Position numbers and translations under genes: made by a program. A stretch of 64,000 nt of DNA from Octopus vulgaris. Its lineage: Eukaryota. A model generated the notes under the pieces. That model did no database searches, was not told the origin of the DNA, and saw nothing but the letters and a program-made list of their open reading frames with translations. Below, one piece after another: positions 14,790-62,185 of this stretch (position 1 is the first letter of the stretch; each line of letters opens with the position of its first letter). The stretch spans positions 177,072,001 to 177,136,000 of the forward strand of contig OX597815.1 of NCBI GenBank assembly GCA_951406725.2, written 5' to 3'.

Positions 14790-14822
<33 letters not shown>

Positions 14823-15075
14823 CATATATGTACATACACATACATACATACATATATATATACATATATGTACATACTCATACATACATATATATACATA
14901 CATATACACATTCATATACATACATATATATATATATATACATACATATACACATTCATATACATACATATATACATACATAATATACGTACATAGATAT
15001 ACATATATATATATACATGCATATATATATACATGCATATATATACATGCATATATTTGTATATACACACATATA
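14685..15075. repeat. TA/CATA microsatellite
   Basis: Low-complexity array. Confidence 0.95.
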
Positions 15076-15702: not shown

Positions 15703-15734
<32 letters not shown>

Positions 15735-17573: not shown

Positions 17574-17780
17574 AGGAGAGCTGCCAGAATCGTTAGCATG
17601 CTGGACGAAATACTTAGCGGTATTTCTCCCGTTCCTACGTTCTGAGTTCAAATTCCGCCGAGGTCGACTATATATAGTCGGGGTCGATAAATTAAGTAGC
17701 AGTGAAACACTTGGGTCGATGTAATCGACTAGGACTCCTCCCACAAATTTCCGGCCTTGTGACCATAGTAGAAAGGATTG
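17574..17780 (+). mobile_element. SINE family A (internal deletion)
   Basis: gagctgccagaatcgttagc ... ttctgagttcaaattccgccgaggtcgac ... ggggtcgataaattaagta. Confidence 0.85.
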
Positions 17781-17804
17781 TTGTTTTTGTTGTTATTTTT
17801 GTTA

Positions 17805-18078
17805 CAATCAGGTTGTTCCTGTTGTCATCAGAACAATGAGTTCAATCCCACCCAACATAAAGGAACATCTGGACCTTCTAGAAATAACTTAGAATCTTGG
17901 CGTATTCCAAAAATCGGTTTTACTTGTAACTGCACGCATACCGCGTAAAGTCGACTCAGGTTCTTGTTATGACTTGACAGTTAAAGCCCCCGGTATACGC
18001 AATATATTCAAGCTACAACATTACAATAGTGGTTTACTGTACGACGTCTTGAATAATGATGATGATAATAATGATAAT
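17805..18078 (+). mobile_element. R4/Dong-clade LINE 3' end (REL domain end, 3'UTR, AAT/GAT tail)
   Basis: Translates VVPVVIRTMSSIP...VFQKSVLLVTARIPRKV, similar to the V.P...GALG...QK..LLGTA.ILRK motif. Confidence 0.7.
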
Positions 18079-18082
18079 CGTA

Positions 18083-18612
18083 AATGTCCTCATGCAGTGC
18101 CAGTCACTGGCTCTCCTGGCTTCTCATCTTAACTGATTGGAAGTGTTATCACGTACATGTTTTGTCTTGATATAAAGAATGGGTTACAACAAATATTCTG
18201 GTCAATACAACATATTTGCTGGTCACTTGCTTGACCATAACCAGTTGAGCAAAGCGGCTGACAATATGTTCATCTCTGATGCAGAAGTAGTGGAGGAGCA
18301 TCATAGTCATCTGTTGAGAGGCATTCTTTGGGGTTTAAAAACTTCACCTCTGGAGACATGGGTGTTTTATTAAACATCTTTAAGATACCCTTATTCACGG
18401 AACTTTTGAACGAGATCGGATACTCGACCTGAAGAAAATTCTGACTGGGCCCCACCTGCAAGGTCATGTACCGTTTATCTTGATATGAGATCACCATGTT
18501 GCGCACATCTGCCTGGTGTACCCTTATTAGACGGGTAATCATGATGGGTATATAGGGCTTCGTGTATTTTACCCCAGTGTCACTTTAATGGCATGCGCTG
18601 CTCTCTCACTCA

Positions 18613-18654
<42 letters not shown>
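18083..18654 (+). mobile_element. ~570-bp non-coding retroposon with (AAT)n tail
   Basis: Homologous to 61428-62001 and 60945-61427; ends ctctctcactcag(taa)n. Confidence 0.85.
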
Positions 18655-18655
<1 letters not shown>

Positions 18656-19212
18656 GACAATAAACCATGTGATTATATCTTGCAACCTTAGCATTGACAA
18701 AACTTTAGTACAAACGGTAGAATGAGGGAGACATTTACTCTGTTGTACGTAAACTATACTTCTTTTGCATTCCAGACATCGGAGGTGAATAGAATTGCAT
18801 AAGTTAAATACTAAAGCAAATATAATTGGCATCTCCCGCATCTCTTGCTTTCCGAACTTTTTTAGCCGTGTTTCTATCGCAGAAATCATGATTTTAATTA
18901 TGATATTTCAACGCTTAAGAAAATGTTTATGTTGAAGAGTAAAGTTTATGCCTCAAGCATTTTATTGTTTATATATTAATGATATTTGTGTCGTAACCTC
19001 AGGGAATGATGCTTTTACTCCCCATCTTGTGTTGTTGTTTTTATTAGGCAATGTGACATGCTGAGATTTTGTGTATATTGATAAACGACGGTAAGATGCG
19101 AAAGAGAATCTGAGGAGTATAAACTATGAAATTGTCGTAGTATGCATGCAGTCGGACGTACGTATAGTCATGCACGCACATATGTAACCACACGAACACA
19201 CACACAAGCTCC

Positions 19213-19304
<92 letters not shown>

Positions 19305-19747
19305 ACAAATGTACGTATCCAAGGTTCAGTCTCACTACATGGCACCTTGGGCCGACCATATCCTTGTGAGTGGATTTGGTAAACGGAAACTGAAAGAAGC
19401 ACATCGTATGTATGTATGTATGTATGTATATATGTATATATATAAAGCAGAAAATGGAGAAAACTTTCGATCAAACAAATTGACAAACATCGGTTAATTA
19501 TTTTTTTATACAAAACTATAACATCGCTTATGGCCGTTTCAGCTACCAATATATCAGACGTTGTCCCCAAAGGAACTTCCGAAGATAATGTTCGTCATAT
19601 TTATAGCCCTTCCGATCTAGTACATGGAGCTTCATCAGTCAATACAAATATATAAATTAAAAGATGTGGGAAGAGGAAAGAACATGACCTCGAGATGAGG
19701 AAAGAAGGTTCAATATCCCTTAGACTGTTATTTCAACCACTAAATTT

Positions 19748-19768
19748 ACCTACCTACCTACCTACCTA

Positions 19769-19808
<40 letters not shown>

Positions 19809-19893
19809 CATGCATGCATACATACATGCATACATGCATGCATACATACATACATGCATACATGCATACATACATACATACATACATACATAC
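19748..19893. repeat. Graded tetranucleotide microsatellite (CCTA)n-(CCTG)n-(CATG/CATA)n
   Basis: Directly visible. Confidence 0.95.
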
Positions 19894-19929
19894 ATAAAAA
19901 ATATATATCGGGTGTATATATGTGTGTGC

Positions 19930-20120
19930 GTGTGTGTATGTGTCTTCGCCCACCACCGCTTGAAAACTAGTATTTGAGCGTTTACGTCCCCGTAATGTAG
20001 CGGTTCGGCAAAAGTACCCGTCTTAAAACGTAATTTACTCTGGTCGATTAGTTCGATTACGATTCTTGAAGGCGGTGTCCCAGCATGGCCTCAGTCTCAT
20101 GACGGAAACAAGTAAAAGCT
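19930..20120 (+). mobile_element. SINE family B 3' half (a 5' half lies at 19320-19410)
   Basis: tttacgtccccgtaatgtagcggttcggcaaaag ... ggcggtgtcccagcatggcc ... gaaacaagtaaaag. Confidence 0.8.
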
Positions 20121-20261
20121 TAAAAGATATTAATGTGTGTTCATATGCATGCAAAGAGAATGAGAGAGGTAGAGAAGGATAACGAAATATATAATGATAA
20201 TAAAACATAACGAGAAATAAATCCGAATATAGACGAGCGAATAATAGCGTCATATTAGATT

Positions 20262-20597
20262 AGGCTCAGTGGTTAGAGCGTCGAGCTTACGATCGTGAGG
20301 TTGTGAGCTCGAATCCCGGACCGGGCTGCGTGTTGTGTTCTTGAGCAAGGCACTTTATTTCACGTTGCTCCAGTTTACTCAGCTGTAGAAATGAGTTGCG
20401 ACGTCACTGGTGCCAAGCTGTATCGACCTTTGTCTTTCCCTTGGATAACACTGGTGGCGTGGAGAGGGGAGGCTGGTATGCATGGGCGACTGCTGGTCTT
20501 CCATAAACAACCTTGCCCGGACTTGTGTCTAGGAGGGTAACTTTCTAGGTGCAATCCCATGGTCATTCATGACCGAAGGGGGTCTTTACCCTTTACC
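20262..20597 (+). mobile_element. tRNA-derived SINE family C, full length
   Basis: A box GGCTCAGTGGTTAGAGC, B box GAGCTCGAATCCC, core ttgtgttcttgagcaaggcacttta, tail (ctttacc)2. Confidence 0.88.
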
Positions 20598-21141
20598 TCT
20601 GGATATTTCACTGCCAGTTTTTATAGTGCATTATCAGGAATAAACGCCTTCCCTTTCGGTAATAACTTATTGTCACGTGCTCTCCTAATGCTTAGATGAG
20701 TTTCTTAGTGCTTATTTTGTCATACTGGGATGATTTAGTAATTGGAATTTCTTGTGTATGTTTGTCTTTGTTCAGTTTTATTTCAAGATTTCTTGACAAT
20801 AGAGAAAGAGCCGGTTTTTAACCTAGGTTCAAGGTTCATTCGTACGAATCTATGTTCGTCTGTATGTATTCATTTTTGCGTGTGTATCGATGTGTGTGTT
20901 TGTGTTTGCAGTGAGCTTTTTCTCCCATATTAGGAAGCGTAAAATGGTATAGAGATATACAGATGAGACAGATGAATAGAGAGATAAATGCAGTGGCACA
21001 TACACGCGAACGCTGACCGCTAGAATCACAATATTCAATAATGGATGTATACGCAGGTAAGAAAATGTTGGCTCTCATGGTATTGATGGTGGTGACAGAC
21101 ACACACATAGTCTCTCTCTCTCTATATATATATATACATGT

Positions 21142-21191
<50 letters not shown>

Positions 21192-21265
21192 GAGCGCATA
21201 AGAGTAAAACCAGGGAGAGAAAAATAGTATTCGAATATCAAACGTAGAGAGTTATGATAATTCAC

Positions 21266-21305
21266 AACCATCCGACGAACGGGAACGTGAAACTGAGTAA
21301 CCGTT
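21266..21305 (+). ncRNA. Minimal hammerhead-like motif (U4C variant, weak stem I)
   Basis: aaccat-CCGACGA-acg-GGAA-cgt-GAAAC-tga-GTA-accgtt between TA tracts. Confidence 0.45.
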
Positions 21306-21338
21306 CTGTGATAGTTTCTTTTTGTGTGTATGAATGTG

Positions 21339-21370
<32 letters not shown>

Positions 21371-21374
21371 TATA

Positions 21375-21682
21375 GGCGTTGGAGTGGCTGTGTGGTAAGT
21401 AGCTTGCTTACCAACCACATGGTTCCGGGTTCAGTCCCACTGCGTGGCACCTTGGCCAAGTGTTTTCTACTATATCCTCGGGCCGACTAAAGCCTTATAA
21501 GTGGATTTCGTAGACGAAAACTGAAAGAAGCCCGTCGCATATATATATATATATATGTGTGTGTTTGTCCGCCAACATCACTTGACAACCGATGCTGGTG
21601 TGTTTACTTCCCCATAACTTAGCGGTTCGGCAAAAGAGACAGATAGAATAAGTCCTGGGCTTACAAAGAATAAGCCTTGGGC
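21375..21682 (+). mobile_element. SINE family B with internal TA/TG microsatellite
   Basis: ggagtggctgtgtggtaagtagcttgc...gggttcagtccc (tRNA-like boxes), body repeated about 10 times in the window. Confidence 0.9.
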
Positions 21683-21734
21683 CATGCAATAGTAAGTACT
21701 CGGTTAAAATACGTTGGTACACATCCAGTAGTAT

Positions 21735-22335
21735 ATTGGATATTTACTATAAACCTTCCGGTTCAGAGAAAAAGGTGTCATCATTCCACTTTTCTCCTCC
21801 TTTGTACGGCCACAACTCGAATACTGTAGCACCTCTTGGTCTCCCCACACGAAACAAAACATCTTGAGGATTGAATCACCCAAGAGGGCACTCACTAAAC
21901 GGATTGAAGGCATGACTGATCTCGATTACTGGGACCGCCTTAAAGACTTGAAACTCTACTCTCTCCAGCGCCGCCGCGAGAGTACATGATTTGTAAGATG
22001 TGGAGAACATACCGCCAGCATTGCCCAAACGACCTGAACATTAGTTTCAAGGTTCATCTAAGGCTGGGACCACGGGCCATACGTCCCCTGCCCAATTCAG
22101 GATCACAACATATAGGTACACTGCGACATAATTTCTTTTCCTCGACAGGCTCTGCCCCGCTTAACATTGTCCCAAAACCGATTAAAGAGGAAAAGGAATC
22201 TGGACATATTTCTTCAAGGAAAAGCAGATAAGCCATCCATACCTGGATACAACTCACTCAACAAGAACTCACTACTTGAATGGACCAGAAGGTAGACATG
22301 GCCCGGGCCAATCTTTGGTCGAAACATATCTAAGT
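21735..22335 (+). mobile_element. CR1-group LINE ORF2 3' fragment (frameshifted)
   Basis: LFSSFVRPQLEYCSTSWSPHTKQNILRIESPKRALTKRIEGMTDLDYWDRLKDLKLYSLQRRRE, a classic CR1 post-RT motif. Confidence 0.92.
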
Positions 22336-25864: not shown

Positions 25865-25907
<43 letters not shown>

Positions 25908-26075
25908 CATATATACGACGGGCGTCTTTTAGTTTCCGTCTACCAAATCCACTCAAGGCTTTGGTCGGTCCGAGGCTATAGTAGAAGACACTTGCCCACG
26001 GTGCCACGCAGAGGGACTGAACCCGGAACCATGTGGTTGATAAGCAAGCTATTTACCATACAGTCACTCCCGCGC
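25683..26075 (-). mobile_element. SINE family B, full length
   Basis: Reverse complement of the 21375 and 19930 sequences with an internal CA/TA tract. Confidence 0.9.
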
Positions 26076-26384: not shown

Positions 26385-27908
26385 AATTAAGATAAAGAAT
26401 TTTCAAAAATTTTAAATATACTCTCCTGTTCCTGGAACAATGATCTTCCATCTCTCTGGTAGACTTGCAGGGCCATTCTTCCAAAATTCTCTTGCTCGTG
26501 ACGAAAAATGTTCCTCCAGTAATGCTCTGACCTCGTCTACAGAATTCATATTTTGTCCGACCTAGTGATTTTGGAGACTGCAGAATAGATGATAATCAGA
26601 TGGGGCAATGTACGGCGAATATGGTGGGTGGGGATCGCTTCCTATTCAAACTGCTCCAGCCTTTGGTATGTTTCCCCCGCTGTATGTGGCCGAACATCTT
26701 GAAACCAAAGATGGCCGTTTTCCTTCAAACCATTCGCAGTAGATCTCCTTTGTTATCATTTGGTTCGGGTTTGAAGTTTTAAAGTGGACTAAACCATTTA
26801 TATCCCACCAAACAGAAAACAAAAGCTTACGTGGATGAAGACCGTCTTTAGTCTAGGGCGCCGGTGTTTCTCCTTTCTCTACCCCGCGTTTTCCGTGTTT
26901 GATATTTTTATAGTAAACACATTTCTCGACACCAGTCACTGTTCAGTCCAAAAAAATAGTTAATTCGAAAGACGTGACGACAAAGAAGAGCGCACATTCA
27001 CTCTCCGTGCATAACTATACACGAAAAGGTTGTGAGCCATTGGCCCAATTTGCTGACATTTCAGATGGTACACAGGAGTCAATGAATGGTTGAATAACCA
27101 AATCCAAGTTTCTCTGCTAGTTTGTCAAGTTACGATGGACATTATTTACATTCGACAGATATTTGTCCTCATCTTGTTTGTTGTTAACAAAACGCTTCGG
27201 TTGATATACCCTCCAGCGTTCTTCAGGTGTCTTGGGGAAATTTCGAACCTGGGTTCTCATTCCTAAGGTATTTTTCGATGTAATTATTATTATTTATTAT
27301 TTTCAGGTCACTGCTTGGAATCGAACTCGGAATCATGGGGTTAGTATCCCGCACTCTTAACCACTACGCCATATGTCCGTGGGCAATTATGGAGTAAATT
27401 TTAGGGCTCCATAATTGCCCACGGGCATATGGCGTAGTGGTTAGAGTGGGGGCTACTAACCCCAAGATTCCGAGTTCGATTCCAAGCAGTGACCTGAACA
27501 ACAACAACAACAACAATGATAATAATAATATCGAAAAATACCTTAGGAATGAGAACCCAGATTCGAAATTTCCCCAAGACTCCTGAAGAAGGCTAGAGGG
27601 TATATCAGCCGAAACGTTGTGATAACAACAAACAAGACGAGGATAAATATCCGTCGAATGTAAATATAGAACTGTTGTTACGATGGGATTTTGTTCCAAC
27701 AGGTTTGCAAGATGTCCTCGTCGAGCTCTACAGAACTTTCAGGATGTGGCTCGTCTTCTATGTTGTAGAATCTGGGTCGGAATTTCTGGAATCACACTTT
27801 ACACTGGCTTACGCTTAATGTCCGATCCCCATACACTGCATCAATATTCCTCTCACTTTCAGTTGCATTGTTGCAATTGAAAAAAAACCGCATTATTTAT
27901 AAGGTGAC

Positions 27909-28652: not shown

Positions 28653-29976
28653 TAGAAGTCCATTCATCGCTCTGGAGCAATAGTTGATCGTACAGTCAGG
28701 GAAGTTTATCTATGTATCCGTTATGTTAAGCTTGATAGTTAATTCATATAGCTTTGCAGGTTTCATGTGTGTGTTTGTGAAATATCACTCATTTGAAATT
28801 AAATCTTCCTACATTGATTGAAAATTCCATTTTTCATGGTGCCGTAAATTCTGAAATTATTTTTTACTAATTATCACGAACGAAACTCTTGATAAATTAT
28901 AAATAAGCTATCGGCTTTTGTCACTATTGACTTTTCTTACTTTTGCCATGTTTTATTTTATTGTATCGTTATTGGAAATATTTCTGCTGATCTTAATGTG
29001 TGTGTGTGTTGTTTCACCTTTTTCTTCCTATTTACTCTATTATTGACGCGTGTATTCATGTGCAAACTTTTGAGTCAACATTTGACTTATTGAATTTAGA
29101 ATTAATATATAAATTGGAATTCCTACATGCCATACATATTTGAGTCAAATAACATTGAACTAATATATTTTTCGAAGATTTCGTCCTCAAATTCTTGCTC
29201 CCAAGTGATTTAGACAAATTTATGTGACGTGAGTTATTTAAGGAGAATGGATCTAATGTAATTAACATTTTTAGCCTATATTAGGATATAGCATCGAGTT
29301 TGAAACGTCTTAAACGGAATATTTTGACTTCTCCGCGAATAACGAAACGTTTGTGTGTCTGATAATTACACTTTACAGAAACGTAATTATAAATGGGAAG
29401 TAATATATGTATATCCTTAGATCTTTGGGAGACAGCAAAAAGATCTTGCTGGTTATAGAGCAAGGTAGACGAGTGAAGCTGGGAAGAGATGATAAGCGGT
29501 GATTTGGCCATCTCTACTGACCCACAAAGGGAAGTACGTTACAGTTTAGGGGTTGAAACACCCGATGATTGTTGGAATAAGTGGAAAAGAAGCATCTTCT
29601 CCTGGGCGTTATCAATATGTGCTAAACCTTTCAACTAAAACCCAGTGAATACCCAGCCTTGTTTTACATACGTGCCCCTTTCCTTTCAAGTTTCTTTCTT
29701 CTCCCACATTGCTTTTTTACACATATTTCGCTCCCGGGTTCAATTGCATCTCGAGTTAATTGAGAAGGACCATGAGAAGAAGTGTGATAGAAAATTAAAT
29801 AAGATGAAAGAAGCAATGCGAAAATTGATAAAATTAAATTGGTCTTTGTTCAGAACGATTTTTTCTTTATACGGAACTATTTTGTGAGTGTATAATATAT
29901 ATAAATTTGGTTCTTGTGTGTGAATGCCTAGGTGGACTTTTAAGTGTTTTGAAAAAATAATACAGAGATTTATATA

Positions 29977-30418
29977 CATTATTTACAATGGGCGGATGGT
30001 GTTCTCACCTTGTTTCTTGTTATCACAACGTTTCGGCTGATGTATTCTCCAGCCTTCATCAGGTATCATGGTCGTATTTCGAACCCAACCCTTTATCTGA
30101 CTAATGGGGTACTCTGTTCTCATTCCTAAAGTATGTTGCTGGTGCTATTTTTGTGGATAAGAGCGGTTTCTAAGTTCAATCACAGACAGGGACGTGAAAA
30201 ATAATATGAATAGAAAAATAACCTCAGCAACATATCTTAGGAAAAAGAGCAGTGTATTTCACAAGTCAAATAAAGGGATGAGTTCGGAATTCTACCAGAA
30301 CACTTGATGAAGGCTGGAAAGTACATCAGCCGAAACGTTGCGATAACAAAAAAGATGAGGGCACCTGTCCGTCCATTCTAATTAATGTGCATAATTCCTC
30401 GTTTCAAAAATATAGAAT
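29977..30418. mobile_element. Second palindromic HHR element (diverged subfamily), 12-bp TSD
   Basis: TSD gagatttatata at 29965-29976 and 30419-30430; HHR 30022-30067 (-) with intact core; HHR 30299-30344 (+, C3U); same termini as 27139-27676. Confidence 0.85.
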
Positions 30419-31645
30419 GAGATTTATATATCCGTATACATGTGAAGTATGTACGTATGTGTCTCTTAAGGTAGAGCGTGGACTAAGATGGATTTGTATT
30501 AGTGTTTTCGTGGTGGGATATAATCGTTTGTCAAATCAATATACTATTGTGTGTGTGTGTATGTGATATTGACATCCCATAACATCTTCTCCTCCCCTGC
30601 ACTCCCCTACATATTGCTTATTGTTAACACCCGCAAACTTGCTCCTTAAAATACATGACCCACACATTTTCTTTTCTTCCAAAAGCTTTTGTTTCACCAA
30701 GTCGCTCTCTGCGTTTACGTCTTCGGCTGCACATTAAATATAATATAATATATAAACGATATTTTTACGTACATGTGCGCACACTCACACATATACATGA
30801 ACACAAACAAACATACACACACAAACAAGCATGCACCCAAGCATACACACAGGACACACATACACATGCACACCCACCACACACGCGCACACACACGCGC
30901 GCACAAACACACACACATACACACACAGACTGGAAATTTCTAACAGACTACCTACTTCCAATAATTTTTTGAAACATTTGCGAAAGCATAAAAGAGTCTT
31001 GTTTGATTATTTACTAATCTGTTTCCTTGATAAATAAATATTGCTTCTTTCTTTCAAATTTAAGTTCACCTATAGCATATTTTCCCCTCCATTTATCATA
31101 TTCTGCGTCCTCTGTAATCTTGTTTGCGTTGTTGCCAATTTGCATCAATGAGCAAATCAACGCTCTGTGGTTGCAAGTACAGAACCACACAGTAACACAC
31201 ACCTACGCATCTACATCCATCAAAGCTTTCAGATGGACATGTATGTTTTTCTAATAGAGAGTTAATGCACGAATGCATATGAATGAATATCGATATATAA
31301 CTATATATGAACGGTGAAAATATTTAGTAATACTGAAGCGAAATGATTTTGCGGAACGTTGAACAATATCGATTTCTTTTGATTAAGAATGAGACGAAAC
31401 TTTAAGACAAAACTGAAAGGACATAGATGAATGAGGCGGTTCGATGTTAAACAACAAGCTGAGATGAATGCTCTGTAGTTCGTTACATTTCAGCAACACT
31501 GCGTTGCACTGTTGTACACCACAACCATTCACAAAAGTCACAGGTAACATATTTCTGAAAACTGTGGAAGCTCAGAGGCCTACAGAACTCGACAGATTGC
31601 TAAACTGAATTTCTCATTTCGAAGCATACATTTGATACATACATA

Positions 31646-31875
31646 CACGTTGCCCAACGTCGTCTGCATTGATGGCAGCGTTCCTGGAACTCCCTCTTTG
31701 GGACAGCGATGCATATGTGGTGCACCTTGTCCACCATCACTAGGTCCAGTCTGTTATGCTCTAGCACCTGATCTGTTTGGATTGCGAAATCACAAACAAT
31801 TTTACTACTCTCCGATTCCGCAACTCTGCGCTTTTTTGCTCATACCACGTCTTGCCTATCTCGTGCCTCAAAATT
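31646..31875 (-). mobile_element. R4/Dong LINE fragment, inverted copy of 32884-33113
   Basis: Near-identical reverse complement; ORF pairs 31632+ and 32864- share LPNVVCIDGSVPGTPSLGQ. Confidence 0.85.
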
Positions 31876-32834: not shown

Positions 32835-33113
32835 GTGGCAACATGATCGGGTAGCGAAAGTGTTTACATTGGAAACTGTGCGAAATTTTGAGGCACGAAA
32901 TAGGCAAGGCGTGGTATGAGCAAAAAAGCGCAGAGTTGCGGAGTCGGTGAGTAGTAAAATTGTTTGTGATTTCCCAATCCAAACAGATCAGGTGCTAGAG
33001 CATAACAGACTGGACCTAGTAATGGTGGACAAGATGCACGACATATGCATTGCTGTCCCAAAGAGGGAGTTCCAGGAACGCTGCCATCAATGCAAACGAC
33101 GTTGGGTAACGCG
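32835..33113 (+). mobile_element. R4/Dong LINE internal fragment (region entering the REL domain)
   Basis: HDRVAK..HWKLC...WYEQK...KIVCDFPIQTDQVLEHNRLDLVMVDK. Confidence 0.85.
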
Positions 33114-36100
33114 TCAGGCTTGTGATGGAGACTGTATTCAAATACGTAAGCATGCACACACATCATACATACACACACACACACACACACACAACATACA
33201 TACACACAGACAGCTGAAATGTGTGTGTGTTAGTAAACGATGGCCTTATACACATACCGCCGGTAGGCTTGATTCCATTTCCGTCTGCCAAATTTTTGTC
33301 GACCTGATTCAGTAGAAGACACTTGTCCAGGGTATTATGAAGCGGAACCGTCACCGAAACTATGTGGCTAAGAAGCAAAACACTCAACGATGTAACTATG
33401 GCGACGTCTAGCAGTCAGATCGCTCAACTATTGGTCGAGGTTAATCATATAACCTTGTTTGACTTTCTTGATTAATTCTATATTGTTGTAATGGAAGTGT
33501 CTAAAATATACACAACTTCAAAAATGATCATACTTGTGTGTGTGATAATATAAGACGTATGAGTAACCAGAAACAGAGACATGGAAAAGCTTCAAGTTGA
33601 ATGTGTATGCGTGTGTGTGTGTGCGTCTGCGTGTGTGAGTAACGGGAGCGTTTATATATAGTAATATGGATATATCTGTTTATCGATGCTTGATTGATAT
33701 ATATATATCCATAACGGAGTCGTTTCAAAAAATAAAAGCGTCGAGTTTTTAAATATAGTTTTAATGTATTTAGCTTTACATTTATCTAATTGAATTTCCT
33801 TGTAGTTACTTATCTTTGAGATCTTTCACGTCAAAGTATAAAAAATATCTTCTTAATATCAGGAAAATACGTTTGTAATAAGAAATAGAAGAATGGTTGA
33901 GTAAATAACTAATTATTTGAACGTCAGATGCTTTATATTGGGTCTTTGAAAACATGATAGCAGAGTTAGTTGCTCGGCAACTAACAGTGAAATAATGACT
34001 TATTACGTTAGTACAAACCACAATTTTCTAGTGAAGATGTATAATTGGCTGAATTGACTGCAGTCCAGGTCTGATTTTTCTGTTATCGTCTCGGGGGAAT
34101 GAAAGATATAATCAATCCATAAAGTATTATTGGAGTTCAGTGTAGCGACGTAAGACTGGTTGTTTCACTATATTCCCCTGCGTTGTTCACACTAGTTTCC
34201 AAAAGAATGGAGTCAGGAATATAAATGTAGGACATATATCCGTCCATAGCAAAGTTCTGATGTTTCAACGAATATAACATTACATCGTTTCATACATAAC
34301 GAGCTTTATCACCATACACTGCTCCTTTGGTGCCTTTAGTCTTAAACATTCTGGTGAAAATATTCGGATAAGAAGATGTTCACGCTTAGGGTAAGGAAAA
34401 TATGTTTATTCTGAAGTTGGCGTGACTTGTCAGCCTGTTACTGACTGTTAGATGATATTGGTGAGAAGAATATTTGAACAGTGGAAGGATGATGTTTTGC
34501 ATTTGTGAGTATCGCATCTTTTCGAAGATGTGCTCGACTACATTCCTCTACTTCAAGTAGTAGGGTAAGAATTAAAAGATTCGATCTTCTATTTCCACCA
34601 GGTTGGGCAACTAGATAATGTTTCTAGATGTTCAAATTCTTAGGTAAGACTTCAGAAGTCTGTCCACACATAGGGTGCATTGTTCTAAATCCTGATCTCT
34701 GATATCTCGTAGTTGACTCTCCTTTACAACAGCGAACGGATTTTCGTGGGATGGGTAGAGAAGAGACTAGAAGCGAAGATCAATATAAACTATGGTTAGA
34801 GTCAGTCAAAACAAAAGTAATTTAGAATTTACGAATCCCTATCTGGAGAAAAAATGAAAACTGTCATCGAGAACCCTGCTCCTTCCGAATTGTAAATCAA
34901 TAGAATATAATTCCTTCTGCTGTCGTCCCCAAGCTCTGTGCTAGTGCCTCAAAACTGACATGGCTCCGAGAAAGTCATTTAAAATTACTAACGTCCCAAT
35001 CAAATTATTTTCTACAGTGGAAGAGATGGTCATCGAAATACAGGCATTGTAATACACTTCTATGCCTCCCACAAACGGAAACCAACTCCAAAATACACTG
35101 ACAAAACAAATTCAGAATCTACTGACCGAGTCATTTTCTATGATCAACTACCTACGAGAAATATTAGGCTCACTGGTACGTTGATAATAAAAGCTAAAAA
35201 AAAGCAATTAAACATTTACCCATACATTATTGGTTTTGCACCTCGTTAGTTTTGTTCAGTGCAGAACGGATGCAAAAGTCTGCCTGCTGTAAAACATACC
35301 AACTTCAAAATTTGCGATCGTTTTAATCGGTCGATTAGCTTTTTGTCACTCTGACAGGAAATTCTGTTTCACAGAAAATACCTGTCTCATTTACGTGGAT
35401 GAATCAACACATGGTACCCATTCTCTCCCTTCACACACAGCCATTTTATACTCCCTTCCCACCTACGTTTTGCCTTCTGGCTTCGGCCTATAGATATTCA
35501 ACCTAAACATCTTGCGCATCAATATTAACAACCGCGGAGAGATTAAACTCTCTCTCTATTATCTTTAAAACTCTCTTTTCTAACTCGCGGTTTTTCTAAT
35601 ATATTCTTTTAACCCCTGCATTCACCAAACATCTGCAGATTCTGCAACGTTTCTGCATCTGTATCTTGCCCTCTCTTTAGGATCTAATTGTTGTCATTTC
35701 TCGGGTTAGAGGCGGAAATTCTCACATTATGTATCATTTCATACGCTTATAAACTCTGAAATACATAGTAGGAGAAACCCTCCAGGCTCAGATGCTGACT
35801 TAATGTTTAAAAACTCTGTATACGACTGCGACTGTGGCGGTAACAGTCGTAATATACTTGGCATCAATATAAACCTAGATTCTTTCTTTAATATTGATAC
35901 ATCCAACCTAAGTTACCTGCGTATGATTTAAATTTGTCTCTCAAGATATTGGTCTTTGACTTACCGTGTCTCAATCATTGTTAAAGAAAAATTCTAATGA
36001 GAGCTTATATGGTAGAGTTACATATTGCATATTGGGGAATCTTTGCTAAGTTTTTTTTTAGCCTAATAATACCAAACTGGGCACGCACTTCATATTGAGC

Positions 36101-37524: not shown

Positions 37525-37917
37525 ATACTCTTTTACGTCTTTCAGTCATTTGACTGCGGCCATGCTGGAGCACCGCCTTTAGTCGAACAAATCGACCTCA
37601 GAACTTATTCTTTGTAAGCTTATTCTATGAGTCTGTTTTGCCGAACCACTAAGTTACGGGGATGTAAACACACCAACATCATTTTTCAAGTGAAGGTGGG
37701 GAGGACAAACACAGACACACAAGTACATATATATATATATATATATCATATACATGACGGGCTTCTTACAGTTTCCGTCTACCAAATCAAATCACAAGGT
37801 TTTGGTTGGCCCGAGGCTATAGCAGAAGAGAGTCCCTCTTGTTGCCACGCAGTGGCACTGAAACTGGGACTATGTGGTTGGGAAGCCGGCTTCTTACCAC
37901 ACAGCCACTCCTGCGCT
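37525..37917 (-). mobile_element. SINE family B, full length
   Basis: tttcagtcatttgactgcggccatgctggagcaccgcc ... accacacagccactcctgcg. Confidence 0.9.
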
Positions 37918-42544: not shown

Positions 42545-42725
42545 AGGAGTGGTTGTGTGGATAGGCACATGAGTGGCTATATGGCTAGAAGCTTGCTTAC
42601 CAACCACATGATTCCAAGTTCAGTTCCACTGCGTAGCAACTTGAACAAGTTTCTTCTGCTATAGCCTCGGGACAACCAAAGCCTTCTGAGTGGATTTGGC
42701 AGACGGAAACAGATAGAAGCCCCGC

Positions 42726-42727
<2 letters not shown>
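42545..42727 (+). mobile_element. SINE family B 5' half
   Basis: agcttgcttaccaaccacatg..ttcagttccactgcg..gtggatttggcagacggaaac. Confidence 0.82.
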
Positions 42728-42759
<32 letters not shown>

Positions 42760-42764
<5 letters not shown>

Positions 42765-43453
42765 GTATAAGGGCTTAGTAAAATAAATTACTTTGCCACA
42801 TACTGAACTCATTAGAAATAGTAGCTAAAGAAATTTCTTTAGCTATTTCTAATACTTAAAGAAGATCTCTCTCAGATAGTGTTTGCTCAAACCAACTCAC
42901 GAAGGTATGGGGGAAAAACATTAAAAAATCAAGTGCAAAGGTTATTTGAGAACGTACGTTTCTAGATTAGTCAAATCGACATTTCTTTCGTCAGCTCAGA
43001 ACTCCTTGATTCGGATTTGGGAACACTGAAAGTGGGAGCATACCCTTTTGGCTTCTTATCACCTCTAGAATTCCGCTCGAACTAAAAGTGCTATCAAATT
43101 CAAAATATGCAAGCGAAGAATTTCTGCTCTCCTCTTTCCACCAGCGTGGGTTAAAATTGACAAACACTATGTTTTATCGGTGAAAACCGAAGCATTAAAC
43201 AGAGAGAAATGAATTATAATTTCAACAATTGAGGGTAAAATTAATTAATTATTAATCAATTTCACCAAGTATTCAGTATGTAAAGGGACCATTTTAGGCG
43301 AATTCAAAATATTACATTATGTATAAGGGCTTAGTAAAATAAATTACTTTGCCACATACTGAACTCATTAGAAATAGCAGCTAAAGAAATTTCTTTAGCT
43401 ATTTCTAATACTTAAAGAAGATCTCTCTCAGATAGTGTTTGCTCAAACCAACT
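42760..43453 (-). mobile_element. 556-bp unit with ~137-bp terminal direct repeat and an internal HHR (42947-42998)
   Basis: 42760-42897 repeated at 43316-43453; minus tgag-CTGACGA-stemII-GAAAC-gtac-GTT-ctca; (TA)n on both flanks. Confidence 0.8.
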
Positions 43454-43457
43454 TATA

Positions 43458-43496
<39 letters not shown>

Positions 43497-47371: not shown

Positions 47372-47373
<2 letters not shown>

Positions 47374-47958
47374 ACTTCATGATGTTGTGCAGTTACTGTT
47401 TATAACTCGCTCAGAGATTTATTATTGCTTGTTTCCACTTTTTGTCACTGGAAAAAGTATATATATATATTTGCATTGAGAACCACTTCTCATCGCCGAC
47501 CGGTGGTTGTCACACGCTGATCACGGGTCCGTGTGTATCACGTCAGGCTGGAGATGAGAAAGATGACTTCCCTTTGCAAATTCTAACAGGGCACAAAGTG
47601 TCTCAGTAGCCAGCTGGAGGAGGTGTCCTCCTGGGGCTACAAGATACAGTAGCATCAACCCTTAAGGGTTAGCCACATTTAGATGGGAAATATACTTCAC
47701 GATGTCGTGCAACTACTATTTATACCTCACTCAGAGATTGCTTTTATATATATATATATATATATTTGTATTGAGAACCACTTCCCATCGCCAACCGGTG
47801 GTTGTCACACGCTGATCACGGGTCAATATCCAGAAACTCGGGTCCGTGTGTATCCCGTGAGGTTGGAGATGGGAAAGATGTCTTCCTGGGGCTACAAGCT
47901 ACAGTAGCATCAACCCTTAAGGCTTAGCCACATTTAGATGGGAATTATACTTCACGAT
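47372..47958 (+). mobile_element. Tandem ~320-bp HHR-bearing units (retrozyme-like)
   Basis: Unit starts tacttca(t/c)gat at ~47373, ~47692, ~47948; HHR 47806-47850 cacacg-CTGATCA-cgggtcaatatcca-GAAAC-tcgg-GTC-cgtgtg. Confidence 0.75.
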
Positions 47959-48454
47959 ACATACATTTATATACATAGATGTGTGTGTATGTGTGTTTAT
48001 AATACATTCATTCCTTTCCTTTCCTTTATCCACTGGAAATTAAATAAATGATAAAGTTCAGTATAGTTGTTATGTATAATCAACAGAAATTCATTTCATA
48101 TTTTAACGTTTTCCTCGGAAATTAATTAAATACAAGTATGTTTGTTTCAATGAACAGCTTTTTACGAGTTTTCTGTATATGGTTCCGAGTCACTGCATGG
48201 AGCTCATTCCGTATTGATTTATTTCAAACAAGAGAGGAACTACTTCGAATAAGAAAACATTTATCGATCGAACTACCCGCAACATAATATCGGCACCTAA
48301 TTTCATATATTCTCTTGCACAAGTTGTAAAATTACTTCAATGTTGGCTGAAAATATAATGATTCACTTTAAACTCCGCCATGTTGAACTATTGTGTAGGC
48401 TTTTGTACATCTTATTGGTACGGGATACACACACACATACACAGTCTCGTATTC

Positions 48455-48862
48455 TTTTTACTTGTTTCAATCATTTGATTGTGGCCATGCTGGAGCATCG
48501 CCTTCGAGGATTTTAGTCAAAGAAATCGAGCCCAGAATTTATTTCTTAAGCCTAGTACTTATTCTGTCGGCCCCTTTTGCCGACGCAAACACACCAACAT
48601 TGGTTATCCAGCGGTATCGGGGGGGGGGGATAAGCACAGGCACAAAGATACACACACATACGTATATATGTATATACACATGTGTGTATGTGTGTTTGTG
48701 ACGGGTTTTTTCAGTTTCCACCAACCAAATCCACTCACAAGGCGTTGGTCGGCCCGAGGTTATAGTAGAAGACATTTGCCCAAGATTCCACGCAGTGGGA
48801 CGGAACTTGGCATCAAGTAGTTGGGAAGCAAGCTTCTTGGCACACACCTACACCTGCGCCTT
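48455..48862 (-). mobile_element. SINE family B
   Basis: tacttgtttcaatcatttgattgtggccatgctggagc ... cacacctacacctgcgcc. Confidence 0.87.
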
Positions 48863-49697: not shown

Positions 49698-50434
49698 TAA
49701 AATTCGGACGCGCGGCCGTGGTACCGACAATCTGAGTTCTAGTTGTTTTGAAGCAATTTTAACTTTCGTCCTCAGATAATCCGATTTATGCTATGAAGTG
49801 TATAATTAATTAGATAAATAAATAACCCTGTCTAAGTCATCAAATTTCACCGATTCTTCACAGCAAAGAAGTATTTAAAAAGTCTTCTCATTCCGCATCG
49901 TGGTCTCAGTGGACAAAATGGAAAAGTCCTCGTCCCAGAGGATTGCGAGGGAGATGCGTTTGAACAGCCCATCTAACTCACAGTGCTAGCATTTGCGGAC
50001 AGCCATCTCCGCCGCGAGGCAATTAGCAGAGATGGGATCCAAGAGCCGAGACTCCACTTACACAGGTTCGACCACAAACCTGTCAGAGAGCGTTCGATAC
50101 TTGGACAGTGGCCGATGAGATAAAGTATCAGTCAAATAGGAAAACTGGTAGGAATCATTAGAAATTTTCCCCTCACATCTTCATTAGACATGATTAAGAA
50201 ATGGAAGCATAGAAGCACGTAGATATCGAAAATCACATCGTCAATGATATTATTCGATGTTATTTTTAATTCTTGAGCTCCGAGAACTTCCTGAAAAATG
50301 CTTCACCTGCTTCCAGGATATCGAAACGTTTTTCTCTTTTTTTAATATGCATATTAGAATAGACGAAATAGGAAAATATAACTGGAGACAAATAATGTAT
50401 GGAGATTTCATACAATTTGTAGAGTAGATTATGC

Positions 50435-50708
50435 GGGCATATGGCGTAGCGGTTAAGAGCGCGGGCTACTAACCCCAAGATTCCGAGTTCGATTCCAAGC
50501 AGTGATCTGACTAATAATAAATAATAACATCGAAAATACCTTAGGAAGTAGAACCCAGGTTCAAAATTTCCCCAAGACACCTGATGAAGGCTGGAGGGGT
50601 GTATCAGCCGAAACGATGTGTTAACAAACAAGATAAGGACAAATATCGGTCAAATGTAAATAATGTAAATAACGTACATAATTCCTCATCTCTTAAATAT
50701 AGAACTGT
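50435..50708 (+). mobile_element. Solo arm of the tRNA-head/HHR element; HHR at 50576-50622
   Basis: gggcatatggcgtagcggttaagagc..gagttcgattcc..gacac-CTGATGA-a-ggctg..cagcc-GAAAC-GAT-gtgtt (cleavage triplet mutated). Confidence 0.85.
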
Positions 50709-57645: not shown

Positions 57646-58436
57646 AAATGTATCAAAATGTTTTTATCTTGTGGTGATGATGGTGGCGGTGTGCTATAAA
57701 AACACGAATAAAGCGCATATTAATTATTGTTATGTACAGCACAATACTGATTTAACTTTATATAGTAATTTATAGCAAAACTTGTATAGAAATTATGTGC
57801 TTAATCTCCCTGTAGGATTCATCGATTTTTGTCAATCATTAATTCCTAGTTTTATATTATTGACGTCTTCTGTTTTATTGATGCCTATGATCTCTCGATC
57901 ATATTTAGTTAAGCACAAGAAATTCCATGGAGAGTTTAAAACGAACATGATAATTATTTAATAGGCAAAACGCAAACAAATGGTTTAAAAAGGCTTAAAT
58001 GTAGGCAATCAAATTTCTAGTAGTAGCTTCTTTGTATATCCGAATCTAGCGAAAATGACCATACAATTATTTCAAAGGATGTTATTCTTATATCGGGTGA
58101 GAAAATTCGAGAAAAAAAATCTACCGTGTGTATTGGAAAATCCAACGTTTCGGACAAGAAACCATACACGTAGAGTGCTACGTTTACTTTCCGGTAAAAT
58201 GGAAGAAATTTTAACGTTACCAGGCGACGCTCTTGTAGAGAAAGGATTGATGAGGAAACAAAAAAGATGGAGAGAATACACGTTTCTGAATGAACGGTCA
58301 ACGCCTTCTAAATTAACCGGAAGATGATGGAATTTGTTTGAGGCGTGGTTGGCAAGGGAGACAACTTTTGCCAGGGATATGTGTGTATTCCCAAGCACGA
58401 ATGTGTATGCAACGAATATATGCCTCTTTATTTACA

Positions 58437-58476
<40 letters not shown>

Positions 58477-58487
58477 TACTAACTGTG

Positions 58488-58985
58488 GCAGTGCTACTAT
58501 TGTTTTTAGCGCAAGGAAAACATCTCCTCCAGCTCGCCAACGACACACAATCTGTGTCCGATTAATATTTGCGAGGTCATAGCTCCCATCTCTAGCCTTA
58601 CGTTATACACAGAGACCCGAGTTTCTGGGTGGTTACCCGTCTTCAGTGTGTGTTAATCACTGGCCAATGATGAAGAACTCATTCGACTCGCAAATTACTG
58701 TATCCTTTTTAAAGCGACACACTGCCGCTGATCTCGTAAAAGAGAGAGATAAGTTATATTAAATCTCTGAGCAAGAGATAGACAGTAAAAGTACGGAATC
58801 GTAAAATATATTTGCGAACTAAATGTGGCGGTCCTATAGTGGAGGGTGCTACTGGTGTTTCTAGCCCCTGGAAGACATCTCTTCCAGCTGGCCAACGACA
58901 AACAATCCGTGTCCGACTGGTATTTGCGAGGGAGGTCACCGCACTCATCTCTAGCCTTACGTGATACATACAGACCTGAGTTATG
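58488..58985 (-). mobile_element. Second tandem locus of the retrozyme-like HHR unit (359-nt period)
   Basis: Minus HHR 58608-58652 cacaca-CTGAAGA-cgggtaaccaccca-GAAAC-tcgg-GTC-tctgtg; next GTC at 58973-58975; homologous to 47372-47958. Confidence 0.78.
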
Positions 58986-59269
58986 TTTCTCTCGTGTTCT
59001 CTATCTGAAGAATCCTCTAGAAAGGATGCAAGCGCTAATATATGATTTATAAGAACATGTGATATATTAATAAAAATCTGTAAATATAACACCATCCAGA
59101 TTTCTGAGTACGTTATTTCTTCTAATAAATATATATATAAACATAAGCAGCAGTTAGCAGCGTTTTGCTGAAGAGGAGAATTACAATTGTCACTATGTGT
59201 GAGTAGGGTGTTAGGAAACACTTATTTCTAGCAATGTAGGCGTCTCCTAACAGCGTAGTCACATCTAGT

Positions 59270-59316
<47 letters not shown>

Positions 59317-60804
59317 TTATATAATGTTTGTGTGTGTGTGTGTACGCGCGCGCTTATGTATCTTGAGTGTTTTTGAATGGATGACGGTTAGAAGACCGAA
59401 ACAGTGAGAGATTAGCTGTTTGCTTAATCGACATATGAGATCAATTGAATTAATTAGCATATAAGCGCGGAATACTCAACCGGCATTGTGCCAGGTTGCC
59501 TCTTCGCCTGGAAATATACATTACCATCATAAATAACTGACATGCTGGATCCTCAAAATATCAAATATAAGCAGTCCTATTTGTACGCCTACACATCCAA
59601 CAACAACAACAACCCACCTATCAAAAAGAAAGAATGAAAGAAGAATACAAAGAAAAGTTAAAAGAAAAAAATGGATGTTCGCAGCTAGAAACCCAGTGCA
59701 GATTTCAGTTAGTTAAGATCTAGCGACAACAACAACAAACATTTGTGAATGATATGTAATCATTGTTCAATGATCTGCTTGAAGCGTGTATGTGATTGGG
59801 AATGTGGATTTTCACAGATAACTAATTATAAGTCGACGCAGTCGATCTGTTATTGTACTCACAATTACCACTCTCGATGTAGGGCATCGCGTAGCTGAGT
59901 ATTATATCTAAACATAACGAATAACAGGAAATGTTCACAGTCGCTAGATTTTTTTTAATCAATCTTTCGTGAAGAGTACAAATACTTTTATTTTTGCATG
60001 GATAAGGCAACTGGAAGAATGATAGTGTTCTAGAAATCGAAATTGAAAAAAAATAATATGACAAAAAATGTAAATAAAAGAATGAAGGAAATTGTAATCA
60101 AGCCGGAAACACATAAATTGATTATGAATTAATCTCTACAGATGGATGCAAAGATTAGAAAAGAAAGTAATTTATTGGAAATTGTAAATAAAATCATTAT
60201 ATAAACACACTTCTTATTAGAATCGATTTTTCCTTGAGGAAGAAGAAATCATTAGACGTCAATATCAAAATAACAGTGTTGGATGTAGTAGACGTGGTGT
60301 TTTGTAGCAAAGTAACTCTTACTCATGTTATTCATATACAGAATCATTTTTCTTCCTGTCACTGGAAATAATAATTATGATTTCTAACGTGTTTGTTACG
60401 GTTACGGAGAAACATGTGCAGTTAACAGGCGTATATGATTCCATCGATGGATGAAATAAAGAAATGATGTAAAGCGTGGGTTTAGAACGGATAGGATGAA
60501 CGTAATACATATAATTAATTATAATAAACAGAATTTAAACAAAATTCACGGATACACTATTTTAGTGAGGGATTAAATTGGATTATAGCGAGGTCAGAAT
60601 TTGAATGCTACCAATTTCAATGATCTCGGAGAGGCTAAAGCTAAACTTGATCTGGAAAGAGTATAAGCAAACATCTCAAACAGAATTTTAACGAATCTGC
60701 TTCTTTCTGGCGTCGTTGATCTTATTTCAGGGTCAATGAAATAAAGTACGAAGTACTGACTGATACACCCACTCTACAACAACTGTAAAAATCGGCTTTA
60801 ATTA

Positions 60805-60945
60805 GAACTACAAGCATACTGCGTAAAGTACTGTCTGCATGAGGCCCTTGTTGTGACTTGACAGACAAGACAACCTCCAGTACACACAATATCTTCAATC
60901 TATAACATCAAAAAACTGGATACTATACGATGTTTTCAATAAAAG
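60805..60945 (+). mobile_element. R4/Dong LINE 3' end (same family as 17805-18078)
   Basis: TTSILRKVLSA* plus 3'UTR cttgttgtgacttgacag..caatatcttcaa shared with 17960-18050. Confidence 0.7.
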
Positions 60946-62001
60946 ATGAGCTACAACAAAATTGCTGCCGAATGCCACAGATTTGGTGGCTTGTTGTTGA
61001 CTTTAACCAGTTGAGCACGTCCTGTGGCGGTTGAAAACGTGTGTACCTCTGATCACGAGCATAAGTAGTAGTGGAGCATCATAGCCACGTGTTGAGAGGA
61101 ATTCTTTGGGGTTTCGACAATTAACTCTGGAGACATGGGTGTTTCATTTGGCATCCTTAAACAGACCTTATCGAGAGACCTTTTGAGCAGGATGAGCTAC
61201 TCGATTTGAAGAAAATTCTAACTGGGTCCACCTGCGAAGTCATGCGCTGTTTATCTTGATATGAAATTACCATGTCGCACAAATGTGGTTGTGATGCATG
61301 TCTGGTGTACACTTATCAGATGGGTAGTCATGATGGGTATATTGGGCTTCGTATGTTTGTAATCTAGTGTCGCTTTGACGGCATGCGCCGCACTCTCACT
61401 CACTCACTCACTCAATAATAATAATAAATGCCCTGAAGCAGTACGAGGCAGTGGCTCTCATGGCTACTGGTCTTAATTGATTGGAAGTGTTATCACGTAC
61501 ATTGTTTTGTCTTGGTATAAAAATATGGGCTACAGCAAATATTCTGCTCAATATCACAGATTTGTTGTCACTTGTCTGAGCATAACCAGTTGAGCATGTC
61601 TCTTAGTGACTGACGACATGTGCGTCCCTGATCACGAACAGAAGTAATGGGGGAACATCAGAGCCATGTGTTGAGGGGTGTTCCTTGGGGTTTGGATAAT
61701 TCATCTCTGGAAACATGGGTGTTTCAGTCATTATCCTTAAACAACCCTTATTCAGAGACCTTTTGAGCGGGATGGGCTACTCGACCAGAGGGAAATTCTA
61801 ACAGGGCCCAACCTGCGAGGTTATGCGCTGTTTATTTTGATATGAGATTACCATGTCGCACACATATCGTTGTGATGTATGTGCCTGGTGTAGCCTTATC
61901 AGACGAGTAGTCTTGATGTGTTTATTGGGCTTTGTATATTTGTACCCCAGTGTCACTTTGATGCCACGCACTGCTCTCTCAATAATGATAATAATAATAA
62001 T
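60945..62001 (+). mobile_element. Two tandem copies of the ~570-bp (AAT)n-tailed retroposon
   Basis: Truncated copy ~60945-61427 and full copy 61428-62001, both ending in (aat)n; homologous to 18083-18654. Confidence 0.85.
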
Positions 62002-62004
62002 AGC

Positions 62005-62185
62005 AACAATAATCCTTTCTATTATAAGCACAAAATCTGTAATTTTGGGGGCGGGAACAAGTCGATTACATCGATTCCAGCGTTTCACTAGTACTTAAAT
62101 GATCCTCTCCGAAAGGATGAAAAGTAAAGTCGACCTCGGGGCAATTTGAACTCAGGATGTAAAGACGGACGGAATGTCGCTAGAC
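62005..62185 (-). mobile_element. SINE family A
   Basis: agtcgattacatcga..gaaaggatgaaaagtaaagtcgacctcgg..atttgaactcag. Confidence 0.82.

What the first reader, a model, noticed from the sequence alone, without database searches (positions are those of the whole stretch)
42760..43453. 556-bp terminally redundant unit in (TA)n carrying a third HHR type and a strong hairpin
Seen: near-identical ~137-bp direct repeats 556 bp apart (about 1.25 units), TA tracts both sides, no coding capacity. Minus strand has UGAG-CUGACGA-interrupted stem II-GAAAC-GUAC-GUU^CUCA with palindromic ACGUACGU. The repeat also contains the palindrome attagaaatagtagctaaagaaa/tttctttagctatttctaat. Inference: partial tandem typical of Penelope pseudo-LTRs or rolling reverse transcription of a circle; near identity of the repeats suggests a young insertion.
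Basis: partly seen in the sequence, partly recalled or inferred. Interest (0 to 1): 0.72.

Follow-up and report, generated by a model that had tools for sequence, protein, structure and literature searches.

The report
Hammerhead mini-retroelement in TA microsatellite
This is a young copy of a very abundant, protein-free jumping element that carries a self-cutting RNA motif and most likely borrows the enzymes of Penelope-type retrotransposons, a known kind of element that here shows unusually clear traces of how it is copied.

Summary
In detail: a 694-bp insert (1.25 copies of a 556-bp unit; 138-bp end repeats, one mismatch) between two (TA)n tracts, non-coding, with one type I hammerhead on the minus strand (strict descriptor hit by 1 of 20,000 random sequences). 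Public assemblies show a high-copy family: 8,456 contigs of one run lie on the unit; copies about 10% diverged are collinear with it; the 40 listed differences spare the catalytic core. Other copies join (TA)n at a different left end (43215), so the redundancy is not a fixed LTR; TG..CA, PBS and PPT are absent. Both TA-joined ends lie 191 and 292 nt downstream of the hammerhead cut site, as expected for Penelope-type internal initiation of reverse transcription. Best reading: a non-autonomous, Penelope-dependent element of the animal non-LTR retrozyme kind, copied from a multimeric or circular RNA. Not shown: cleavage, expression, circles, or the autonomous partner. This copy has a single hammerhead and cannot cut out a circle itself. 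New member of a known kind; moderate interest.

The parts
42563..42728 (+). SINE-like dispersed repeat whose TA tract is the insertion site (host sequence, not part of the element)
   Evidence: 75-82% matches at 19345, 21382, 25891-26069, 37724-37916, 48663-48861
42729..42761 (.). Left (TA)n tract, at the element's inferred RNA 3' end
42760..43453 (-). Whole insert, 694 bp = 1.25 units of 556 bp, GC 34%, non-coding
42760..42897 (-). 3' copy of the 138-bp redundancy; 42760 is the inferred reverse-transcription start (site B), 191 nt downstream of the cut site
   Evidence: role inferred from Frangieh 2024
42765..42803 (-). Predicted AU-rich stem-loop ending 5 nt before the 3' end
   Evidence: fold; function not tested
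42811..42853 (.). Near-perfect 43-nt hairpin with a 3-nt bulge (again at 43367-43409)
   Evidence: z -5.5/-5.1; family variants change the bulge region (tables 4 and 7)
42947..42998 (-). Type I hammerhead: helix I 42998-42995/42950-42947, core 42994-42988, helix II 42986-42964 with a spare A on each side, GAAA 42962-42959, palindrome ACGUACGU 42959-42952, predicted cut after 42951 (GUU)
   Evidence: cleavage not tested
42936..43008 (-). Extended helix I (4 bp, internal loop, 3 bp, bulge, 5 bp) enclosing the ribozyme
   Evidence: fold
43215..43222 (-). Second family terminus (site A): other copies join (TA)n here; 292 nt downstream of the cut site round the unit; read through in this copy
   Evidence: loose TA ends before 43215 in 23 contigs of X1 and 1 of X9, microsatellite before 43222 in 2 of X9 (table 7)
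43234..43266 (.). Second AT-rich 15-bp hairpin, 19 nt upstream (RNA sense) of site A
43316..43453 (-). 5' copy of the redundancy; 43453 is where copying stopped
43454..43491 (.). Right (TA)n tract

Best explanation
A young copy of a high-copy, ORF-less retroelement family that depends on Penelope-like elements (PLEs); by anatomy an animal non-LTR retrozyme or 'mini-PLE'. Steps: (1) multi-unit copies are transcribed on the minus strand (inferred); (2) two hammerheads pair through the ACGUACGU palindrome and may cut out monomers that are ligated to circles (inferred, optional); (3) a PLE RT/GIY-YIG protein nicks a (TA)n tract and starts reverse transcription inside the RNA at one of two preferred sites, 191 or 292 nt downstream of the ribozyme and next to hairpins (TA-joined ends shown, enzyme inferred); (4) the enzyme copies through the uncut or re-ligated ribozyme and past one unit length, stopping here at 1.25 units (shown by the sequence; needs a multimeric or circular template, or a template jump). 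This copy has one ribozyme, so it cannot release a circle itself. Template: circle about 40%, linear multimer or jump about 60% (judgement).
For: Repeat family: 8,456, 2,242, 113 and 206 contigs laid in 4 of 4 runs, 30 of 30 bins covered in each; 9 of 24 listed runs hold half of the words or more, under 4 organism labels and 5 studies, one of which may be the window's source. Collinear diverged copies: X9 records 25, 26, 30, 31 overlap from 42871 to 43266 at up to about 10% difference (table 8), so the ORF-less unit is no one-off deletion. Core: of 40 listed differences 2 fall in the ribozyme, at the free position 7 (42990) and the spare base after A9 (42987), with equal depths in all four runs and about half the depth in X1 and X2; the second makes a U-A pair. 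Ends: TA-joined end at 43215 in other copies. PLE features from papers: internal RT start at two sites downstream of the hammerhead, AT-rich targets (PMC11167929); partial tandems, (TA)n bias, non-autonomous families with pLTRs (PMC8557442); short helix I, unpaired base after A9, palindromic helix III (PMC4209133); retrozymes as non-autonomous PLE derivatives, units 51-972 bp (bioRxiv 2026.07.22.740005). A second hammerhead family in the window is also a partial tandem beside (TA)n.
Against: No autonomous partner seen: no RT or GIY-YIG hit in 138 of 320 window frames scanned, no loose end into an ORF among 24 rows shown (200 hidden). The ribozyme is not significantly better conserved than the rest on the rows shown (2 of 52 against 37 of 504 places, p 0.27). 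G10.1-C11.1, called highly conserved in PLE hammerheads, is absent; the cut triplet is GUU; the active monomer fold is 4.3 kcal/mol above the minimum. No TA-joined loose end at 43316, this copy's own end, is among the rows shown. The two ends are 101 nt apart, the published tail is 30-40 bp. The strong fold (z -6.0) drops to z -1.7 without the two local hairpins (other null, 15 samples), so a rod-like circle is not supported. No contig spans the unit (longest listed piece 181 nt); multimers with two ribozymes were not seen. Frangieh 2024 found hammerhead cleavage dispensable for PLE insertion in vitro.
Confidence: 0.72

Rival explanations
1. One-off internally deleted copy (or solo pseudo-LTR) of an abundant autonomous PLE; the high coverage comes from the parent's ends and the 556-bp unit does not spread by itself.
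For: Summed depth is lowest between site A and the ribozyme (X1: about 10,000-22,000 at 43172-43191 and 16,000 at 43049 against over 2 million at 43217-43273), where an ORF would have been cut out. An earlier AI note reached this verdict for a similar element in another genome (unchecked).
Against: Contigs 5-12% diverged run straight across these stretches in X1, X2, X9 and X13 (table 8, e.g. X9 records 26 and 31); loose ends there are diverged homologues of the unit; 0, 0, 0.03 and 0.05 of laid records run on into unlike sequence. Origin by deletion long ago is compatible with the best explanation.
Confidence: 0.1
2. Same RNA element, but mobilised by a microsatellite-targeting LINE (a SINE-like partnership) rather than by a PLE.
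For: No partner was identified. Cervera 2020 lists LINEs or PLEs as candidates. That some R4/Dong LINEs target microsatellites is recalled, not from a call.
Against: No poly(A) or tail of its own, two internal ends, partial tandem and a PLE-type hammerhead.
Confidence: 0.09
3. A dispersed satellite-like unit spread at the DNA level (unequal exchange, extrachromosomal DNA circles); the ribozyme is a relic.
For: Li 2026 suggest local tandem amplification of PLE ends by unequal crossover. No RNA evidence was obtained here.
Against: A lone 1.25-mer in a TA tract, no other copy in 64 kb, a recurrent TA-joined end, core intact in diverged copies.
Confidence: 0.06
4. A TRIM or LTR retrozyme with 138-bp LTRs.
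For: Two near-identical terminal direct repeats around a short non-coding middle.
Against: Repeat ends are AT..CT (plus) and AG..AT (minus), no TGG primer site and no purine tract next to the repeats on either strand; ribozyme is type I and lies outside the repeats; another end at 43215.
Confidence: 0.03

Closest known systems
Animal non-LTR retrozymes (Cervera and de la Pena 2020, PMC7229834; Li et al. 2026, bioRxiv 10.64898/2026.07.22.740005)
   Same: Non-coding repeat unit with a type I hammerhead, GC under 50%, no LTR, PBS or PPT, high copy number, more-than-unit insertion.
   Different: Unit 556 bp (150-450 bp in Cervera 2020; inside 51-972 bp in Li 2026); this locus has one ribozyme, so it fails Li's two-unit definition of an active copy; sits in (TA)n with defined ends; circles and cleavage not shown.
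Pseudo-LTR/tail region of endonuclease-bearing PLEs, e.g. Poseidon of Anolis (Frangieh et al. 2024, PMC11167929; Cervera and de la Pena 2014, PMC4209133)
   Same: Partial tandem; ends downstream of the hammerhead at two internal sites near stem-loops; AT-rich target; 4-bp helix I, palindromic helix III, spare base after A9.
   Different: No RT/GIY-YIG ORF; ends 191 and 292 nt from the cut (first site about 85-92 nt in Poseidon), 101 nt apart against 30-40; no G10.1-C11.1; a second spare base before GAAA.
Non-autonomous Chlamys PLEs such as MRC1 and Chlamys-N4 (Craig et al. 2021, PMC8557442; PMC9977147)
   Same: ORF-less PLE dependants with pseudo-LTRs, head-to-tail copies, microsatellite targets, once mistaken for LTR elements.
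   Different: Chlamys and Naiad mostly lack canonical hammerheads and Chlamys targets (C)n/(CA)n; no sequence link tested.
Plant LTR retrozymes and TRIMs (PMC7761336)
   Same: Small, non-coding, terminal direct repeats, ribozyme (retrozymes).
   Different: Those have type III hammerheads in both LTRs, PBS, PPT, 4-bp TSD; none found here.

Membership tests
Animal non-LTR retrozyme | Type I hammerhead in the repeat unit | tested here: met
   (motif); Rfam does not score it
Animal non-LTR retrozyme | Non-coding, GC under 50%, no LTR/PBS/PPT | tested here: met
Animal non-LTR retrozyme | Multi-copy family with conserved core | tested here: met
   thousands of contigs; none of 40 listed differences in a catalytic position; 26 rows not shown; no significant excess of conservation
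Animal non-LTR retrozyme | Two or more consecutive units each with a hammerhead (active copy, Li 2026) | tested here: not met
   1.25 units, one ribozyme at this locus; other loci cannot be judged from contigs. Fits Li's 'monomer' class
Animal non-LTR retrozyme | Unit of 150-450 bp (Cervera 2020) or 51-972 bp (Li 2026) | tested here: inconclusive
   556 bp: outside the first range, inside the second
Animal non-LTR retrozyme | Self-cleavage, and expression as circular RNA | not testable with these tools
   only contigs were available
Penelope-like element (autonomous) | RT plus GIY-YIG ORF | tested here: not met
PLE-dependent non-autonomous element | Partial tandem forming pseudo-LTRs | tested here: met
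PLE-dependent non-autonomous element | Insertion in AT-rich or (TA)n target | tested here: met
   this copy; TA-joined ends of other copies
PLE-dependent non-autonomous element | Two internal 3' ends downstream of the hammerhead (tail) | tested here: inconclusive
   ends at 42760 (this copy only) and 43215 (23 contigs in X1); 101 nt apart, not 30-40; right ends not surveyed
PLE-dependent non-autonomous element | PLE-type hammerhead: short helix I, palindromic helix III, spare base after A9, G10.1-C11.1 | tested here: inconclusive
   first three met in this copy, G10.1-C11.1 not met
PLE-dependent non-autonomous element | Homology to the end of an autonomous PLE in the same genome | not testable with these tools
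   no genome held; three motifs absent from the one supplement file of Craig 2021 held as text
TRIM / LTR retrozyme | TG..CA LTR ends, PBS, PPT | tested here: not met
TRIM / LTR retrozyme | Fixed ends; type III hammerhead in each LTR | tested here: not met

The most novel reading that the evidence does not exclude
A very abundant, recently active family of 556-nt ribozyme RNA circles whose dispersed insertions record rolling reverse transcription by a Penelope-type enzyme: two fixed internal start sites, (TA)n targets, and copy lengths that run freely past one unit. It would be direct genomic evidence for the proposed but unshown PLE-driven mobilisation of animal retrozymes, with a hammerhead subtype (spare base on both sides of helix II, GUU cut) shared in architecture by a second family of the same genome.
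Probability: 0.3. Interest if true: 0.62.

Novelty: new member of a known kind. Interest (0 to 1): 0.38.

Why it matters
How animal retrozymes move is proposed, not shown, and the role of PLE hammerheads is open. A young, very high-copy, dispersed family with mappable ends makes both testable: end maps tell whether a PLE enzyme starts at fixed internal sites, length distributions tell circle from linear template, and two abundant ribozyme variants (paired and unpaired at the base of helix II) allow a natural test of whether cleavage matters for spread. As a single locus it is an ordinary transposon copy.

Tried and rejected
No whole genome is held, so copies could not be collected. Rfam: nothing useful (the weak miRNA hits follow the TA tract or hairpin). 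Expression: no RNA holder listed on record; run X13 is only guessed to be RNA, so its 206 contigs are not used as evidence of transcription. The 'goes back 556' joint in 4 of 4 runs lies inside the redundant part and shows no more than this locus does; summed depth is not a copy number; none of the 32 listed pieces bridges 43316 or 42897 with 31 letters on both sides. Pattern scans: 2 loci in metagenome contigs (L001, L002; GC 60-61%, no helix I after the motif, longest match to the unit 13 nt: rejected as chance), 0 in viral contigs, 0 in prokaryotic genomes. Pfam on 138 of 320 frames plus 6 unit frames: 5 proteins with weak hits below cut-off, none RT or GIY-YIG; frames under 77 aa outside the unit were not scanned. 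Rod-like viroid fold rejected: 63% paired, multibranched as a circle, signal mostly from two hairpins. A ribozyme on the plus strand: none. A protein starting at the ribozyme as in Poseidon: the AUG in helix II meets a stop after three codons (sequence). One X2 contig has U before GAAA, but its partner base is unseen, so it is not counted as covariation. A clean empty site could not be rebuilt: the SINE's usual downstream part is missing right of the insert. Earlier findings by place and by sequence: none. Lunse 2017 is not held. PMC12602865 added nothing. The host was not determined; 'octopus-like' is recalled from the repeat landscape and untested.

Full report
Observation. The insert spans 42760-43453. 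Its first and last 138 bp are direct repeats 556 bp apart with one mismatch, 42822 T against 43378 C. It lies between TA tracts at 42729-42761 and 43454-43491; the left tract belongs to a SINE-like repeat. There is no second copy in the window, no frame over 60 aa and no Pfam hit in 6 of 6 unit frames scanned. The minus strand carries one type I hammerhead at 42998-42947, outside the repeated part. A strict descriptor was met by 1 of 20,000 random sequences of like composition, a loose one by 64 of 5,000. Rfam does not score it.

The ribozyme. Helix I has 4 bp and extends past an internal loop; helix II is 3 + 3 bp with a spare A on each side of its base; helix III is 2 bp with a palindromic loop, and the 8-mer ACGUACGU pairs with itself at -9.8 kcal/mol, while the active monomer fold lies 4.3 kcal/mol above the minimum. 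Cervera and de la Pena 2014 (PMC4209133; passages and part 2 of 4 read) describe this design as working in dimers, with short helix I and a spare base after A9 in PLEs, but with a conserved G10.1-C11.1 pair that is missing here. That GUU cuts more slowly than GUC is recalled. Two hammerheads of a second family in the window show the same two spare bases, so they may be architecture rather than damage. Cleavage was not tested.

The family. No genome is held. Of 24 runs listed, 20 hold part of the stretch and 9 hold half of its words or more, under 4 organism labels and 5 studies; one may be the window's source. I laid 4 of them, all contigs, on one unit, 42856-43411: 8,456, 2,242, 113 and 206 contigs, 30 of 30 bins covered in each. 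Overlapping X9 pieces, up to about 10% diverged, are collinear from 42871 to 43266, including the low-depth stretches, so the ORF-less unit exists in several lineages. No piece spans the whole unit. Of 40 listed substitutions (26 more hidden) two lie in the ribozyme, at position 7 and at the spare base after A9; they have equal depths, make up about half the depth in X1 and X2, and give CUGAUGA with a U-A pair. No catalytic base is among them, but the ribozyme is not significantly more conserved than the rest on these rows (p 0.27).

The ends. The largest loose-end group shown for X1 is (TA)n before 43215 (23 contigs); X9 shows the same end and one at 43222 (24 rows shown, 200 hidden). This copy ends at 42760, equal to 43316, and reads through 43215; no TA end at 43316 or fixed end at 42897 is among the rows shown. 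With the ribozyme strand as RNA, both TA-joined ends are 3' ends, 191 and 292 nt past the cut site, each beside a predicted hairpin. Frangieh et al. 2024 (PMC11167929; parts 1-2 of 4 read) show that a PLE protein nicks AT-rich DNA and starts reverse transcription at two internal sites downstream of the hammerhead, which match genomic ends, and that cleavage is not needed. Craig et al. 2021 (PMC8557442; passages; one supplement file searched) report (TA)n bias and non-autonomous families with pseudo-LTRs. LTR hallmarks are absent.

Age. One mismatch in 138 bp (95% CI 0.02-4%); five places where at least 73% of the depth in both X1 and X2 differs from this copy; pieces of 84 and 98 nt identical to it at depths 4,661 and 297. 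A young copy of a young subfamily is likely; gene conversion is not excluded.

Mechanism. Shown: anatomy, family size, collinear variants, an alternative TA-joined end, more than one unit copied. Inferred: minus-strand RNA, a PLE enzyme in trans, target-primed internal initiation, dimeric cleavage. A 1.25-unit copy with an intact ribozyme in its middle needs a circle, an uncut multimer or a template jump; contigs cannot tell these apart. The unit folds better than shuffles (z -6.0; -5.6 as a circle on both strands) but mostly through two hairpins (z -3.0 falling to -1.7 on another null).

Comparison and novelty. Cervera and de la Pena 2020 (PMC7229834; passages) and a review (PMC7761336; passages) define animal non-LTR retrozymes and name PLEs as likely drivers; Li et al. 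2026 (bioRxiv; parts 1-3 of 5 read; supplements not seen) derive them from PLE ends and count monomer copies. An active autonomous/non-autonomous PLE pair at microsatellites is known in Chlamydomonas (PMC9977147; passages). The element works like these; formal membership as an active retrozyme is not met at this locus, and homology to a PLE could not be tested. Seven searches listed no paper on this family; repeat libraries, the Zenodo files of Bonar 2026 and Lunse 2017 (not held) could not be seen and may hold it. The host looks octopus-like to me (recalled, untested); if so, recently active PLEs are at hand: 31 families, PLEs 6.83% of the O. vulgaris genome (PMC13282606; parts 1-2 of 3 and supplement search). 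An earlier AI note on a similar element in another genome prompted the one-off-deletion test, which this family does not fit.

Verdict. Real, well supported as a PLE-type non-autonomous ribozyme element, new member of a known kind. Interest 0.38; higher only if circles and a PLE partner are shown.

Noticed in passing
window 47373-47965 (+) and 58474-58982 (-): A second, older hammerhead family, unrelated in sequence to the finding (local score 22): cores at 47812 (CUGAUCA, G8 changed) and 58646 (CUGAAGA), both with a spare C after A9 and a spare A before GAAA; partial tandems beside (TA)n; the copy at 47470-47740 has lost the ribozyme's middle between two short repeats.
   Followed up: partly
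window 58997-59045 (+): Third hammerhead-like motif (core at 59005, GAAA changed to GCAA, 5-bp helix II, palindrome AGCGCU), back to back with the 58xxx copy; the pair lies between TA tracts 58436-58473 and 59273-59323.
   Followed up: partly
window 42563-42728: SINE-like repeat with at least five relatives in the window; three of five shown continue after the TA tract with (TG)n and a shared downstream part that is missing here.
   Followed up: partly
window 42899-42894 (-): GUGAGU, a splice-donor-like hexamer, overlaps the point equivalent to the insert's right end (42897/43453); PLEs carry introns near the pseudo-LTR. May be chance.
   Followed up: no
window 27143-27666, 29967-30397, 13337-13600: Long self-inverted repeats related to 50434-50708 and 13693-13836: MITE-like family.
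   Followed up: no
window 31645-31875 and 32884-33114: 231-bp inverted pair, 95% identical; frame 32920-33312 looks from memory like a LINE restriction-like endonuclease piece, no Pfam hit.
   Followed up: no
window 17909-18641, 60787-62182: Repeat of about 600 bp present once and as a diverged tandem (74-79%).
   Followed up: no
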